NCBI GenBank assembly: GCA_017886575.1
Contig: JAGHJP010000050.1
Location: forward strand, 28,661 to 92,660
DNA from: Clostridia bacterium
GTDB lineage: Bacteria; Bacillota; Clostridia; Christensenellales; Borkfalkiaceae
Length of the DNA stretch: 64,000 bases
Direction of reading: 5' to 3'
In this document: positions 56,623 through 58,532 of the stretch, in pieces
Layout: every line of letters starts with the position of its first letter
Position numbering within the stretch: the stretch's first letter is position 1
Notes under the pieces: generated by a model
The model's input: the letters and a program-made list of their open reading frames with translations, nothing else
Databases searched by the model: none
Told to the model about the DNA's origin: nothing
Made by a program: the position numbers and the translations under genes

Positions 56623-56811
56623 CTATTCTCTGCCCAGCAGAAAATCGGCGGACACCCCGAAAAAGTCGGCGAGGAGGACGATGTAAGACGCCTTCGGCTC
56701 GTTGACGCCCCGCTCCCAATAATCGACGGCCTTCTGGCTGACGCCGATGGCTTTGGCGAGCGCGGCCCGCGAAAGGTTCTTCTCCGCGCGCAGGCATTTA
56801 ATATTTTCCAC
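56623..56811 (-). CDS. XRE family helix-turn-helix transcriptional regulator (62 aa)
   Basis: GTG start with a GGGAGGA RBS 7 nt upstream. MENIKCLRAEKNLSRAALAKAIGVSQKAVDYWERGVNEPKASYIVLLADFFGVSADFLLG is a textbook HTH_3 domain. Confidence 0.9.
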   Translation of the reverse strand: MENIKCLRAEKNLSRAALAKAIGVSQKAVDYWERGVNEPKASYIVLLADFFGVSADFLLGRE

Positions 56812-56850
56812 AATGCTGTCCTCCCTTTAAAAGAAATTTTCTTGAAGGGC

Positions 56851-56879
56851 TTGACAAAGAAGAAAACTTCTTTTAGAAT
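56851..56879 (+). promoter_or_regulatory. promoter of the GIY-YIG/zinc-ribbon operon with operator-like inverted repeats
   Basis: TTGACA (56851-56856), 17-nt spacer, TAGAAT (56874-56879). The spacer contains AAGAAG-AAAA-CTTCTT. A related inverted repeat AGAAA-T-TTTCT lies at 56832-56842. Confidence 0.65.
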
Positions 56880-56910
56880 ATAGGTATACAACAGAAAAAA
56901 GGGGAAAAAG

Positions 56911-57675
56911 ATGTTCGATTCGTTTCCGCCGGAAGTGGCGGACAAACTGGGATATTATGTCTACCGCCTGATCGACCCGCGCGACGGACAGACATTTTAC
57001 GTCGGCAAGGGCAAGGGAAACCGCGTATTCCGGCATGCGCAAGGCGTGGCGGAACGGGAAAGATCGGAAGAGGCAATCGGCGATAACGATCCGCAGAAAC
57101 TGCGGGTCATTCACGGGATACACGAGGAAGGGCTGGAGGTCATTCACGTGATCCAGCGGTGGGGGCTGAAAGACGAGGACACGGCATTCGAAGTGGAGGC
57201 GGCGCTGATCGACTGTTACCGCGGGCTGACCAACCTGCAGGCGGGGCACGGGTCGGACGATTACGGCGTTGCCAACGCGGCGTCGCTCATCCGGCGTTTC
57301 ACGCGCAAAGTCTACGACGAACCGAAGGATTTCCGCTATCTCCTCATCAAAGTGCAGCAGTGGCGGGTGGACGAAGCGGCGGGGACATACGGAAACGACG
57401 CCCGCTATCAGATCACCCGCTGGTGCTGGAAGATAAAACCGAGGAGCACGGAAGAATACCCCTATGCCTTTTCCGTCACGGGCGGCATCGTCAAAGAGGT
57501 GTATAAGATCGACCGATGGATACCCGCCGAAGAAAAGCGGTACGCCTTCGAGGGAAGCGTTGCGGAGGAGGCGGTGAGGCACCGCTTTGTGGACAAGCGC
57601 ATCCCCGACGCCTATTGCAAAAAGGGAATGGCGTCACCCGTCCTGTTCTCCAAAAACGAATTGACGAATGAATGA
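56911..57675 (+). CDS. GIY-YIG nuclease-like protein (COG3680 / LEM-3-like GIY-YIG N-domain) with an unassigned C-terminal domain
   Basis: 254 aa. [28 protein letters not shown] ... [11 protein letters not shown] matches my memory of the COG3680-type GIY-YIG signature. I cannot place the C-terminal ~130 aa ([12 protein letters not shown]...[13 protein letters not shown]). Confidence 0.7.
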   Translation: [254 protein letters not shown]

Positions 57676-58532
57676 GGAAAAATATGTCCGTACAAGAGAT
57701 AGAATGTAAAAATTGCGGTGCGCGCCTCGAACGGCGGGAGGACGGGCTGTACGCCTGCCCGCAGTGCGGCAGCGTATTCAAAGACGAGCCCGCCGTCGGG
57801 GACACCGTCATCCATCAAAACATCAGCAACCACAACGAAACGTATGTCAAAAATTTCTACGGCGGCGCGGTAACTTCGGAAAAGACGCGGGAGCGCATCG
57901 AATCGTACTATGGCCTGATTTTGGAGGCGATGTCGCACGAACGATACGCGGAAGCCCGCGGATACGCCGTGCGCATCGTCAACCTGGACCCTGACGAAGG
58001 GGACGCGCGGGCGATCAAGCGCTATTTGGACCACTGTAAGAAAGAGAACGGCAGGTACGGCACGCTCGGCTTTGCGGAAAGCCTGGCCGTGCTGACCGAC
58101 GAGGACCTGCTGGGGCGGACGCCTTCCGAGCGGCCCTTCTTTCTGCAGATCTTTGTCGACGAACTCACCCGCGGCAGTAAAAATTACTACTACTATTTCC
58201 GCGACTTAGAAGCCGGCATGCAAACCCTGGACAAGCTGCAAGAAAAATTATCGGAAATTGCCGACGACGGGGAGGCTTTCGCCGAATTCAAAGAAAAAAT
58301 CGCCGCCTGGGACAAAAAGATGCGCGAAGACCATGCCGCAAACATACGGCGCGAACAGGAATTGAACGCGGAACGCCTACGGCACGAGCAGGAACAGGAA
58401 GCGGAACGCCTGCGAAAAGAAAAGAGAAAAAAACATATCATTGCGGGGATCGTTATCGGCTTGCCGGTTTTATTCATAGCGATCGGATTGATGGTCTATT
58501 TTACTTCTGTAATCCTTGTTTTAACTATATAA
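57672..58532 (+). CDS. zinc-ribbon / helical-repeat / coiled-coil protein with a single C-terminal TM anchor
   Basis: The ATG overlaps the upstream stop (ATGA). An alternative ATG at 57684 has a GAGGA RBS. CKNCGARLERREDGLYACPQCG, a TPR-like helical region, a charged coil REQELNAERLRHEQEQEAERLRKEKRKK, and TM HIIAGIVIGLPVLFIAIGLMVYFTSVILVL at the very C-terminus. Confidence 0.75.
   Translation: MRKNMSVQEIECKNCGARLERREDGLYACPQCGSVFKDEPAVGDTVIHQNISNHNETYVKNFYGGAVTSEKTRERIESYYGLILEAMSHERYAEARGYAVRIVNLDPDEGDARAIKRYLDHCKKENGRYGTLGFAESLAVLTDEDLLGRTPSERPFFLQIFVDELTRGSKNYYYYFRDLEAGMQTLDKLQEKLSEIADDGEAFAEFKEKIAAWDKKMREDHAANIRREQELNAERLRHEQEQEAERLRKEKRKKHIIAGIVIGLPVLFIAIGLMVYFTSVILVLTI

What the first reader, a model, noticed from the sequence alone, without database searches (positions are those of the whole stretch)
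56623..58532. XRE-controlled GIY-YIG nuclease-like gene plus zinc-ribbon/coiled-coil tail-anchored membrane protein: candidate uncharacterised defence or abortive-infection module
A compact module sits between two core genes, the fur-family regulator and trmL.
- **Regulator:** a 62-aa XRE HTH gene is transcribed divergently from a two-gene operon.
- **Control region:** the 99-bp divergent region carries TTGACA-17-TAGAAT. Its spacer is itself an inverted repeat (AAGAAG-AAAA-CTTCTT), and a related repeat (AGAAA-T-TTTCT) lies 20 bp upstream. That gives two operator-like sites.
- **ORF A (254 aa):** it opens with [28 protein letters not shown], the COG3680/LEM-3-like flavour of the GIY-YIG nuclease fold. 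About 130 aa follow that I cannot assign.
- **ORF B:** it is translationally coupled to ORF A (ATGA overlap). It combines a CxxC-N14-CxxC zinc ribbon, a helical TPR-like region, a very highly charged coiled coil and one C-terminal TM helix.
- **Context:** by eye the 3' half is AT-richer than the surrounding DNA, and the module ends at a strong bidirectional terminator.

Regulator plus nuclease plus membrane-anchored partner is the grammar of phage-defence cassettes. I cannot match this pair to any named system.
Basis: partly seen in the sequence, partly recalled or inferred. Interest (0 to 1): 0.7.

Follow-up and report, generated by a model that had tools for sequence, protein, structure and literature searches.

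The report
Known antiphage nuclease, undescribed membrane partner
The nuclease gene belongs to the already characterised PD-T4-3/CMoRE family, which cuts chemically modified phage DNA. Here it is wired to a small repressor and to a rare membrane-anchored protein that also sits behind several unrelated defence nucleases in other bacteria, which points to an undescribed accessory module.

Summary
The three genes, the promoter, two operator-like palindromes and the terminator are all present as described.

**ORF A is not unassignable.**
- It is a full-length member of PD-T4-3/CMoRE (PADLOC 1e-64; PDB 9U75 1.5e-47).
- CMoRE is a published single-gene type IV, modification-dependent GIY-YIG restriction endonuclease.
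- ORF A keeps the GIYxY-YIG motif, the catalytic Arg and Glu, the acidic lid loop and the C-terminal modification-sensing domain.

**Seen from the ORF A family, XRE and ORF B are not conserved partners.**
- Among 92 distinct homologues surveyed, downstream genes are variable or absent.
- This fits the literature's description of CMoRE as single-component.

**Seen from ORF B, there is a pattern.**
- ORF B belongs to a rare family: 32 representatives among 1.84 billion proteins.
- The layout is a Zn ribbon, a linker motif, a Fis1-like TPR, a coiled coil and a TM helix.
- In 6 of 7 lineages examined it lies 1–52 nt downstream of a different nuclease-like gene: CMoRE, UzuA, PDC-S26 or Nmad3.
- A divergent XRE gene is present in all 5 lineages where the upstream DNA is available.

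**Verdict.** This is a known nuclease inside a previously undescribed repressor–nuclease–membrane-adaptor cassette with a swappable nuclease. ORF B's role is inferred, not shown.

The parts
56623..56811 (-). XRE-family HTH regulator, 62 aa, GTG start with GGGAGGA seven nt upstream; the presumed repressor of the divergent operon
   Evidence: Pfam HTH_3 4.5e-14. 95% aa identity and dN/dS 0.31 against the sister MAG. Weak similarity to R-M control proteins and to CapH in PADLOC.
56831..56843 (.). Operator-like palindrome O1, AAGAAATTTTCTT, upstream of the -35 hexamer
   Evidence: motif AAGAA-N3-TTCTT occurs twice in the window against 0.04 expected. Conserved as AAGAAATCTTCTT in L001.
56851..56879 (+). 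Sigma-70-type promoter of the ORF A-ORF B operon, TTGACA-17-TAGAAT
   Evidence: 11 of 12 consensus positions. The -35 hexamer is conserved in L001.
56860..56872 (.). Operator-like palindrome O2, AAGAAAACTTCTT, lying inside the -35/-10 spacer. A bound protein here would occlude RNA polymerase.
   Evidence: Conserved in L001.
56911..57675 (+). ORF A: PD-T4-3/CMoRE-family type IV (modification-dependent) GIY-YIG restriction endonuclease, 254 aa. The nuclease domain spans about residues 1-115 and the modification-sensing domain about 125-250.
   Evidence: PADLOC PD-T4-3 1e-64. phrog_5356 1.4e-59. PDB 9u75_A 1.5e-47 over both domains. Invariant Y16, Y18, Y30, R38, E96 and N108. dN/dS 0.22.
57684..58532 (+). 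ORF B: tail-anchored Zn-ribbon / Fis1-like TPR / coiled-coil membrane protein, 282 aa. The open frame starts at 57672 and the likely start is ATG 57684.
   Evidence: Family of 32 representatives. Alignment A4. AF2 model pLDDT 83.5. TPR and Fis1 matches. dN/dS 0.35 overall and 0.06 over the Zn-ribbon part. TM helix at residues 253-286 of the 286-aa frame.
58569..58608 (.). Bidirectional intrinsic terminator shared with the convergent trmL-like gene. It has a perfect 14-bp stem flanked by an A-run and a T-run.
   Evidence: -26.5 kcal/mol, z=-6.1, 0 of 200 shuffles., I4. Conserved in L001.

Best explanation
The locus is an XRE-controlled operon whose first gene is a CMoRE/PD-T4-3 type IV restriction endonuclease.

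**Nuclease (by homology to characterised enzymes).** The C-terminal domain reads modified bases in incoming phage DNA, such as 5hmC or glucosyl-5hmC. The N-terminal GIYxY-YIG domain cuts that DNA. An acidic lid loop keeps the enzyme off unmodified host DNA.

**Regulator (inferred from anatomy).** The 62-aa XRE protein binds the two AAGAA-N3-TTCTT palindromes. One sits in the -35/-10 spacer. Binding would hold transcription of a potentially self-toxic nuclease at a low level, as controller proteins do for R-M systems.

**ORF B (shown by comparative genomics).**
- It is not a general partner of CMoRE.
- It belongs to a rare family that recurrently lies directly downstream of whichever stand-alone defence-type nuclease occupies the slot: CMoRE, UzuA, PDC-S26/PD-(D/E)XK or Nmad3.
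- A divergent XRE gene usually sits on the other side.
- So XRE plus ORF B form a portable chassis around a swappable nuclease.

**ORF B role (inferred, weakest step).** ORF B is a tail-anchored adaptor. Its cytoplasmic Zn ribbon and TPR bind a protein or peptide at the inner face of the membrane. The most likely effect is to gate or localise the cassette's output, by tethering the regulator or the nuclease near the site of DNA entry. It probably does not contribute to catalysis.
For: **ORF A is CMoRE**
- PADLOC 1e-64.
- Full-length alignment to crystal-structure chains 9u75 and 9u7u.
- All family-invariant catalytic and interface residues are present (read against PMC12923530).
- The family is validated in vivo and in vitro (PMC12366544; 10.1101/2024.12.20.629700).

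**Regulator**
- Promoter.
- Operators are unique in the 64 kb window and conserved in the sister MAG.
- The CMoRE lid-loop mutant is toxic, which gives a reason for tight control.

**ORF B is a real gene**
- Purifying selection.
- Confident AF2 model.

**Chassis: contexts of ORF B-family members**
- L175 and L186: Rep, divergent HTH_3, Nmad3, ORF B-like.
- L174: Nmad3, ORF B-like.
- L176-179: divergent HTH_3, UzuA (PADLOC 4.9e-46), ORF B-like.
- L180-182: divergent HTH_3, PDC-S26 (PADLOC 4.8e-47), ORF B-like.
- Gaps between the nuclease-like gene and the ORF B-like gene are 1-52 nt.
- The XREs of L175, L180 and L186 are 48-61% identical although the middle gene differs.

**Adaptor idea**
- TPR and Fis1_TPR_C matches.
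- The extreme C-terminal TM helix.
Against: - CMoRE works alone in E. coli, and all 274 systems surveyed in PMC12923530 were called single-component.
- In this survey, 92 distinct homologues have no conserved neighbour.
- The sister MAG carries a premature TAG in ORF B while ORF A is intact. ORF B may therefore be dispensable, or the stop may be an assembly error.
- Four structurally unrelated nucleases are unlikely to share one specific binding interface, and no shared C-terminal motif was found.
- Only 7 ORF B-family lineages could be examined, and one of them (L183-185) has no upstream nuclease.
- The XRE type is not constant across loci.
- No XRE promoter was detected by the consensus scan.
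- Nmad3 is not a demonstrated nuclease.
- No experiment exists for any ORF B-family member.
Confidence: 0.6

Rival explanations
1. ORF B is an independent second defence gene that is merely co-transcribed with whichever nuclease is present. It could be a superinfection-exclusion protein that blocks injection, or a membrane-disrupting abortive-infection effector. On this reading the cassette is a two-layer mini defence island, not one system.
For: - CMoRE is self-sufficient.
- The partners are structurally unrelated.
- Some family members carry extracellular InlB-B-repeat domains suited to acting at the cell surface.
- There is a weak holin-like PHROG hit over the coiled coil and TM helix, E=1.3e-3.
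- Defence genes cluster in general.
Against: - The gene order is fixed and the spacing very tight (1-52 nt) in 6 of 7 lineages, always downstream of the nuclease and never the reverse.
- The window protein has essentially no extracellular residues.
- No PADLOC, phage or plasmid homologue exists.
- A single tail-anchor helix is a poor pore former.
Confidence: 0.2
2. The nuclease and ORF B form a toxin-immunity or addiction pair, autoregulated by XRE. ORF B neutralises or sequesters the nuclease at the membrane, and its loss or turnover releases the nuclease. The module would serve mainly to stabilise itself or its mobile element.
For: - Nucleases without a cognate methylase can be self-toxic; the lid-loop mutant is toxic.
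- XRE-type autoregulators are typical of type II TA loci; weak antitoxin-family hits appear.
- Three ORF B-family loci lie in small elements with Rep and/or integrase genes.
- The TPR is a protein-binding fold.
Against: - Wild-type CMoRE is not toxic on its own and needs no immunity protein.
- The sister MAG keeps an intact nuclease with a disrupted ORF B.
- One family would have to neutralise four unrelated folds.
- The supposed antitoxin being downstream and larger than the toxin is atypical.
Confidence: 0.1
3. The association is not functional. XRE and ORF B are lineage-specific or mobile-element housekeeping genes, for example an element regulator plus a membrane protein of unrelated function. 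Nucleases are simply cargo that often lands between them.
For: - ORF B is absent from all other CMoRE loci.
- L175 and L186 place the trio between Rep and integrase genes.
- One lineage has ORF B-like without a nuclease.
- The sample of contexts is small.
Against: - In the window, L176 and L180 the trio occurs without Rep or integrase, between unrelated chromosomal genes. The three genes therefore travel as a unit.
- Four different nuclease-type genes occupy the identical slot with near-zero spacing.
- ORF B is under purifying selection.
Confidence: 0.1

Closest known systems
PD-T4-3 / CMoRE (Vassallo 2022 selection; Nat Commun 2026, PMC12923530; PDB 9U75, 9U7U; PD-T4-3Capno in PMC12366544)
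   Same: - ORF A aligns end to end: the GIYxY-YIG nuclease domain, the acidic alpha2-alpha3 loop and the C-terminal modification-sensing domain.
- Length is similar (254 aa against about 257 aa).
- The family is abundant and horizontally scattered.
   Different: - Published members are stand-alone genes under their own promoters.
- Here the gene is under a divergent XRE gene with operators, and is co-transcribed with a tail-anchored Zn-ribbon/TPR protein.
- The acidic loop is 4 residues longer and is not four consecutive acidic residues.
- Substrate specificity in this Clostridia host is unknown.
Controller (C) protein-regulated restriction-modification systems
   Same: A small XRE-family HTH protein, palindromic operator pairs over a promoter, and control of a potentially self-toxic endonuclease.
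   Different: - C proteins are usually co-directional with, and upstream of, the endonuclease, and they also activate it.
- There is no methyltransferase here.
- Sequence similarity to the PADLOC control-protein models is only marginal (E=0.012).
Fis1 (eukaryotic tail-anchored TPR adaptor)
   Same: A cytoplasm-facing TPR-like helical domain followed by a C-terminal tail-anchor helix. Pfam Fis1_TPR_C matches 8 of 23 family members.
   Different: - The match covers about one TPR unit only.
- ORF B adds an N-terminal Zn ribbon, a conserved linker motif and a long charged coiled coil.
- No evolutionary relationship is claimed; the resemblance is an analogy for the adaptor role.
Membrane-sensor plus nucleic-acid-effector defence systems (Kiwa KwaA/KwaB; Zorya ZorAB with ZorC/D/E)
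   Same: A membrane component encoded next to a cytoplasmic DNA-targeting component. Zorya has modular, swappable effectors.
   Different: - No sequence or fold similarity.
- ORF B has one tail-anchor helix, not a multi-pass or motor complex.
- Here the nuclease is autonomous in other hosts.
Uzume (UzuA) and PADLOC candidate PDC-S26
   Same: Single-gene (candidate) defence nucleases that occupy the same slot between an XRE gene and an ORF B-family gene in L176-179 and L180-182.
   Different: They are unrelated in sequence to ORF A. They are not present in the window.

Membership tests
PD-T4-3 / CMoRE type IV restriction endonuclease | Full-length sequence homology to validated members, covering both domains | tested here: met
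   PADLOC PDLC04031 1e-64. PDB 9u75_A 1.5e-47: query 4-209 plus 206-249 against chain 10-201 plus 218-261.
PD-T4-3 / CMoRE type IV restriction endonuclease | 'GIYxY-YIG' motif with a third tyrosine (Y17, Y19, Y31 in E. coli CMoRE) | tested here: met
   ORF A has G14-Y15-Y16-V17-Y18 ... F29-Y30-V31-G32. Y16, Y18 and Y30 are invariant in 19 homologues. The motif definition comes from PMC12923530.
PD-T4-3 / CMoRE type IV restriction endonuclease | Catalytic Arg and Glu of the GIY-YIG fold (plus the conserved Asn) | tested here: met
   R38, E96 and N108 are invariant columns in alignment A1 and align to the CMoRE chain.
PD-T4-3 / CMoRE type IV restriction endonuclease | Inserted negatively charged alpha2-alpha3 lid loop (autoinhibition) | tested here: met
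   ORF A residues 47-62 ([16 protein letters not shown]) have 6 acidic and 2 basic residues and sit at the aligned position of the DDDD loop. The loop is 4 residues longer and lacks four consecutive acidic residues. The paper says 'most', not all, members have the loop.
PD-T4-3 / CMoRE type IV restriction endonuclease | Oligomer interface residues needed for function (V92/L96 in E. coli CMoRE) | tested here: met
   The equivalent V95 and L99 are present and invariant.
PD-T4-3 / CMoRE type IV restriction endonuclease | Single-component system (no obligatory partner) | tested here: inconclusive
   Most homologues have no conserved neighbour. This copy is co-transcribed with ORF B. Whether ORF B is needed cannot be told from sequence.
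PD-T4-3 / CMoRE type IV restriction endonuclease | Modification-dependent cleavage of phage DNA and protection from phage | not testable with these tools
   Needs biochemistry and plaque assays. Shown for relatives at 38-48% identity.
XRE-family (HTH_3) transcriptional repressor / R-M controller-like regulator | Cro/C1-type HTH domain above the curated threshold | tested here: met
   PF01381 52.7 bits against a cut-off of 23.
XRE-family (HTH_3) transcriptional repressor / R-M controller-like regulator | Palindromic operators overlapping the regulated promoter | tested here: met
   Two AAGAA-N3-TTCTT sites, one in the -35/-10 spacer; 2 observed against 0.04 expected. Actual binding was not tested.
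ORF B family (Zn ribbon - TPR - coiled coil - TM), newly delineated here | CxxC...CxxC ribbon, [VI]KN[FY]YG linker motif, TPR unit with a DPxN turn, NGRY motif and a C-terminal TM helix | tested here: met
   Alignment A4: C8, C11, C25, C28 and P103 are invariant. The window protein carries VKNFYG, DPDE and NGRY. The profile matches consensus TPR at 3e-13.
Abortive-infection system | Infection-triggered host killing or growth arrest by an effector | not testable with these tools
   No Abi-family hit for any of the three proteins. The published CMoRE mechanism is direct degradation of phage DNA.
Type II toxin-antitoxin module | Toxin neutralised by an adjacent cognate antitoxin; the toxin is lethal alone | tested here: not met
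   By proxy only. Wild-type CMoRE homologues are expressed alone without toxicity. The sister MAG keeps ORF A with a stop codon in ORF B. This is not an experimental test of this locus.

The most novel reading that the evidence does not exclude
XRE plus the ORF B family form a portable 'gating chassis' for stand-alone nucleases. On this reading a tail-anchored Zn-ribbon/TPR adaptor sits at the cytoplasmic face of the membrane. In longer family members it is linked to extracellular InlB-repeat sensor domains. It would couple an envelope or DNA-entry cue to derepression or local recruitment of whichever nuclease is plugged into the cassette (CMoRE, UzuA, PDC-S26, Nmad3). This would be a new, modular layer of control that turns constitutive single-gene restriction enzymes into infection-gated, membrane-localised systems. 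It would also flag Nmad3 proteins as an unrecognised class of defence effectors.
Probability: 0.3. Interest if true: 0.75.

Novelty: new variant of a known kind. Interest (0 to 1): 0.5.

Why it matters
- **The nuclease alone is routine.** It would be annotated by PADLOC or DefenseFinder as PD-T4-3.
- **Current definitions may hide accessory genes.** CMoRE, Uzume and PDC-S26 are catalogued as one-gene systems. Here an accessory membrane protein and a repressor repeatedly bracket such 'single-gene' nucleases. Definitions of this kind would miss genes that control when or where these enzymes act.
- **If ORF B gates or localises nucleases, three things follow.**
  - It would show how cells keep methylase-less nucleases safe.
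  - It would give a handle for finding new effectors by guilt-by-association, with Nmad3 as the first candidate.
  - It would offer a small, testable three-gene model from gut Clostridia, where defence biology is little explored.

Tried and rejected
1. **ORF B as a general CMoRE partner: rejected.** Among about 118 loci (92 distinct homologues) the downstream genes are variable or absent. An ORF B-family HMM hits only the window lineage.
2. **XRE as a general CMoRE partner: rejected.** A phmmer scan found an adjacent XRE-like ORF in 2 of 73 distinct loci, counting the window itself. A single-sequence query is of limited sensitivity.
3. **The L004-L007 143-aa protein as a remote ORF B relative: rejected.** It has a Cys-rich N-terminus, a charged helix and a TM tail downstream of a 65%-identical CMoRE. 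hhalign probability is 0.2%. It may be convergent.
4. **ORF B relatives in phages, plasmids or IMG/VR:** none found. One alignment was too divergent to scan with.
5. **Word-index homology search for ORF B:** it found only 2 close relatives and 2 more with the profile. The exhaustive HMMER search was needed.
6. **AF2 of ORF B with 3 sequences:** unusable at pLDDT 58. With 23 sequences it was good. Even so, Foldseek gave no significant PDB or BFVD match beyond generic TPR.
7. **Remote homology between the alternative partners (UzuA, Nmad3) and ORF A, or between Nmad3 and any solved structure:** none found.
8. **Shared C-terminal peptide on partner nucleases that a TPR might bind:** none seen.
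9. **Flanking direct repeats marking an insertion:** none convincing.
10. **Literature on Nmad3, PDC-S26 or membrane-anchored type IV partners:** nothing informative in the held library.
11. **Genome-collection scan with the single ORF A sequence:** it returned only the sister MAG.
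Full report
**1. Observation**

*Genes*
- A 62-aa XRE/HTH_3 gene lies at 56623..56811(-).
- The 254-aa ORF A lies at 56911..57675(+). It carries a LEM-3-type GIY-YIG domain scoring above Pfam's threshold.
- ORF B lies directly behind ORF A. It has a CxxC-N13-CxxC ribbon and one C-terminal hydrophobic helix.
- The flanking genes are a FUR-family regulator and a SpoU/TrmL-type methylase.

*Control region*
- The divergent region is 99 bp and carries TTGACA-17-TAGAAT.
- It also carries two 13-bp palindromes of the form AAGAA-N3-TTCTT.
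  - One lies in the promoter spacer and the other 29 bp upstream.
  - The motif occurs nowhere else in the 64 kb window: 2 observed against 0.04 expected.
  - It is largely conserved in a sister genome.

*End of the operon*
- The operon ends in a strong hairpin with an A-run and a T-run on either side (z=-6.1).

*Composition*
- GC drops to 0.46-0.50 over the last 400 bp.
- GC3 of the three genes is 0.68-0.78, against 0.82-0.84 in the neighbours. This is consistent with acquired, partly ameliorated DNA.

*Corrections*
- The ribbon spacer is 13 residues, not 14.
- The true ORF B start is almost certainly ATG 57684, with GAGG seven nt upstream, 8 nt after the ORF A stop. It is not the ATGA overlap.

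**2. ORF A is a named, characterised enzyme**

*Homology*
- ORF A matches the PADLOC model PD-T4-3 at 1e-64 and phrog_5356 at 1.4e-59.
- It aligns over its whole length with the crystal-structure chains 9U75 and 9U7U, at 1.5e-47 and 1e-45.

*What is published on PD-T4-3, renamed CMoRE*
- It is a single-gene type IV restriction endonuclease.
- An N-terminal 'GIYxY-YIG' nuclease domain cuts DNA that a novel C-terminal domain recognises as carrying 5hmC or glucosyl-5hmC.
- An acidic lid loop prevents attack on ordinary DNA; removing its charges makes the enzyme toxic (PMC12923530).
- A Capnocytophaga homologue at 48% identity to the original also degrades Mu DNA (PMC12366544).
- The gene is active in its native E. 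coli host (10.1101/2024.12.20.629700).

*ORF A has every sequence hallmark*
- Y16, Y18 and Y30.
- R38, E96 and N108.
- V95 and L99 of the oligomer interface.
- An acidic loop at residues 47-62.
- The complete C-terminal domain.

*Abundance*
- The family gives more than 4,700 hits in the word-index search.
- It gives more than 500 metagenome loci and more than 200 IMG/VR loci.

**3. Seen from ORF A, the other two genes are not conserved partners**

- I analysed about 118 loci with at least 500 bp downstream, representing 92 distinct homologues.
- The gene after the nuclease is absent or different in each lineage.
- An XRE-like neighbour was detected essentially only in the window lineage.
- A profile of the ORF B family hits no other CMoRE locus.
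- CMoRE homologues sit in many settings:
  - between core genes, such as pyrH and tsf in L004-7;
  - next to Rep and integrase genes in L008-11.

**4. ORF B is a real gene from a rare family**

*Comparison with a sister MAG (uncultured Clostridia, 93% nucleotide identity, same Fur...TrmL position)*

| Gene or region | dN/dS |
|---|---|
| ORF B overall | 0.35 |
| ORF B Zn-ribbon part | 0.06 |
| ORF A | 0.22 |
| XRE | 0.31 |

- The sister copy carries a TAG in place of GAG between the two CxxC pairs.
- Given the strong constraint around it, this is either a very recent inactivation or an assembly error.

*Family*
- The word-index search found only two close relatives.
- An exhaustive HMMER scan of 1.84 billion representatives found 32 at 25-40% identity.
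- They share one architecture:
  - a Zn ribbon (CxxCG...CPxCG);
  - a linker with a conserved [VI]KN[FY]YG motif;
  - a TPR-like unit with a DPxN turn and an NGRY motif;
  - a variable helical or coiled-coil stretch;
  - a TM helix.
- Five members continue outside the cell with InlB-B-repeat (Flg_new_2) domains.

*Structure*
- With the family alignment, AlphaFold gives a confident model with pLDDT 83.5.
  - The ribbon spans residues 6-33.
  - A disordered linker spans 36-60.
  - Helical repeats span 61-191.
  - One 85-residue helix runs through the coiled coil into the membrane.
- Foldseek finds no significant relative. The best matches are peptide-binding TPR domains.
- The family profile matches consensus TPR proteins at 3e-13.
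- The profile also weakly matches Fis1, itself a tail-anchored TPR adaptor. Pfam Fis1_TPR_C matches 8 of 23 members.
- No PADLOC model, phage, plasmid or IMG/VR sequence matches the family.

**5. Seen from ORF B, there is a recurrent cassette**

I could retrieve the genomic context of seven ORF B-family lineages.

| Locus | Other genes in the locus | Divergent regulator | Gene directly upstream | ORF B-family protein |
|---|---|---|---|---|
| Window | - | XRE | CMoRE | 282 aa |
| L175 | Rep | HTH_3 | Nmad3 | yes |
| L186 | Rep, integrase | HTH_3 | Nmad3 | yes |
| L174 | integrase | not on contig | Nmad3 (cut by contig end) | yes |
| L176-179 | two more HTH_3 genes | HTH_3 | UzuA (PADLOC 4.9e-46, C-terminal GIY-YIG) | yes |
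| L180-182 | - | HTH_3 | PDC-S26 (PADLOC 4.8e-47, PD-(D/E)XK) | yes |
| L183-185 | divergent gene of unknown function | - | none | yes |

- The gaps between the upstream gene and the ORF B homologue are 8, 52, 1, 13, 11 and 32 nt.
- The four upstream protein types are unrelated to one another.
- The roughly 100-aa XREs of L175, L180 and L186 are 48-61% identical to each other, although the gene between XRE and the ORF B homologue is Nmad3 in two loci and a PD-(D/E)XK nuclease in the third.
- In the window, L176 and L180 the trio sits alone between unrelated chromosomal genes, so it moves as a unit.
- The simplest reading is a three-gene cassette in which the flanking XRE and ORF B-family genes are the constant parts and the nuclease is exchangeable.

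**6. Mechanism: what is shown and what is inferred**

*Supported by homology to characterised enzymes*
- ORF A is a modification-dependent endonuclease that restricts phages with modified DNA.

*Inferred from anatomy*
- XRE represses the operon through O1 and O2. This makes sense for a methylase-less nuclease whose safety depends on a lid loop.

*Inferred from synteny and fold*
- ORF B is a membrane-anchored protein-binding adaptor that is functionally tied to the cassette, not to one nuclease fold.
- Because the nucleases are unrelated and share no terminal motif, I favour an action on the common parts: the regulator, or localisation at the membrane where phage DNA enters. I consider a specific catalytic partnership less likely.
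- This last step is weak.

*Rivals I cannot exclude*
- ORF B is an independent surface or exclusion function.
- ORF B is an immunity or antitoxin-like sequestrator.
- The association is non-functional hitch-hiking.

*Evidence that ORF B is at most an accessory*
- CMoRE is autonomous in E. coli.
- The sister MAG has a stop codon in ORF B.

**7. Comparison with known systems, and novelty**

- As a nuclease, this is a new member of a known family.
- The cassette architecture resembles C-protein-controlled R-M systems on the regulatory side. Loosely, it resembles membrane-sensor plus nuclease systems such as Kiwa or Zorya, but without homology.
- I found no description of the ORF B family, or of an XRE-nuclease-ORF B cassette, in PADLOC v2, Pfam, NCBIfam, PHROGs or the held literature.
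- I therefore rate it a new variant of a known kind, of moderate interest. It is a concrete, cheap-to-test hypothesis that some 'single-gene' defence nucleases come with an overlooked control module.
- It also gives a lead that Nmad3 proteins are defence effectors.

**8. Limits**

- The taxonomy of most contigs is unknown.
- Nmad3 is functionally uncharacterised.
- No multimer prediction or experiment was possible.

Noticed in passing
L004-L007, 4773-5204 (downstream of a 65%-identical CMoRE homologue inserted between pyrH and tsf): A 143-aa protein has a Cys-rich N-terminus, a charged helix and a C-terminal TM helix, and starts 1 nt after the nuclease stop. It has the same overall layout as ORF B but is not homologous (hhalign probability 0.2%). 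This may be convergent recruitment of tail-anchored metal-binding partners by CMoRE genes.
   Followed up: partly
L012-L018 (4756-5193 in L012) and L008-L011 (4804-5031; upstream LRR gene 2670-4004): Other CMoRE lineages carry different tightly linked small genes. One is a 145-aa strongly acidic protein with no Pfam or PADLOC hit. Another is a 75-aa internally repetitive protein, with an LRR protein whose stop overlaps the nuclease start, next to Rep and integrase genes. CMoRE may often have lineage-specific accessories that single-gene definitions ignore.
   Followed up: partly
L001 about 5815 (aligned to window 57747-57749): The sister MAG has TAG where the window has GAG (ORF B codon 19 of the 282-aa protein, between the two CxxC pairs). 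The surrounding 81 codons show dN/dS 0.06. This is a recent pseudogenisation, a population variant or an assembly error.
   Followed up: partly
window 56031-59150 against L001: Synonymous divergence from the sister MAG is lower in the module (XRE 0.07, ORF A 0.20, ORF B 0.30) than in the flanking Fur (0.82) and TrmL (0.35) genes. GC3 of the module is also lower than in the flanks. This hints at more recent exchange of the module than of its surroundings. Counts are small.
   Followed up: partly
window 56851-56864 and 58597-58610: The -35/O2 sequence TTGACAAAGAAGAA is 93% complementary to the 3' side of the terminator, TTCTTTTTTGTCAA. The operon is thus bracketed by an imperfect inverted repeat that shares the GAAGAA/TTCTTC half-site of the operators. 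It could be chance in A/T-rich sequence, or a third regulator site.
   Followed up: no
window 58345-58410: A 33-nt tandem duplication (82% identity) inside the ORF B coiled coil encodes two 11-residue units (REQELNAERLR / HEQEQEAERLR). This shows recent expansion of the charged helix.
   Followed up: no
window 56473-56501 (-): A perfect consensus promoter, TTGACA-17-TATAAT with an extended TG, lies upstream of the Fur-family gene, in the 196-bp spacer between Fur and the 3' end of XRE. The sister MAG has a 32-bp insertion in this spacer.
   Followed up: no
L175 1893-2672; L186 4169-4999; L174 1-477: Nmad3-domain proteins (PF18754, up to 3e-39) occupy the nuclease slot of the cassette three times. 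They have no PADLOC model, no PDB relative and no literature in the held library. They are candidates for an unrecognised defence effector family.
   Followed up: partly
P0129, P0135, P0137, P0144, P0148 (ORF B-family members); L174 1266-1961: Some family members extend beyond the TM helix into extracellular InlB-B-repeat (Flg_new_2) domains. In L174 a separate Flg_new_2 protein follows the ORF B homologue. This suggests that part of the family senses or binds something outside the cell.
   Followed up: no
L176-L179, 5894-6392 and 6615-7103: Directly after the UzuA and ORF B-like pair come two more small HTH_3 genes on the opposite strand and a 162-aa gene with no significant family. This could be a second regulated cassette or a regulator duplication.
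   Followed up: no
window 48901-49632 (+): A 243-aa protein with N-terminal Zn_Ribbon_1 and DZR motifs weakly hits the ORF B family profile (E=7e-4), through the ribbon only. It is an unrelated zinc-ribbon protein that is also present in the sister MAG.
   Followed up: partly
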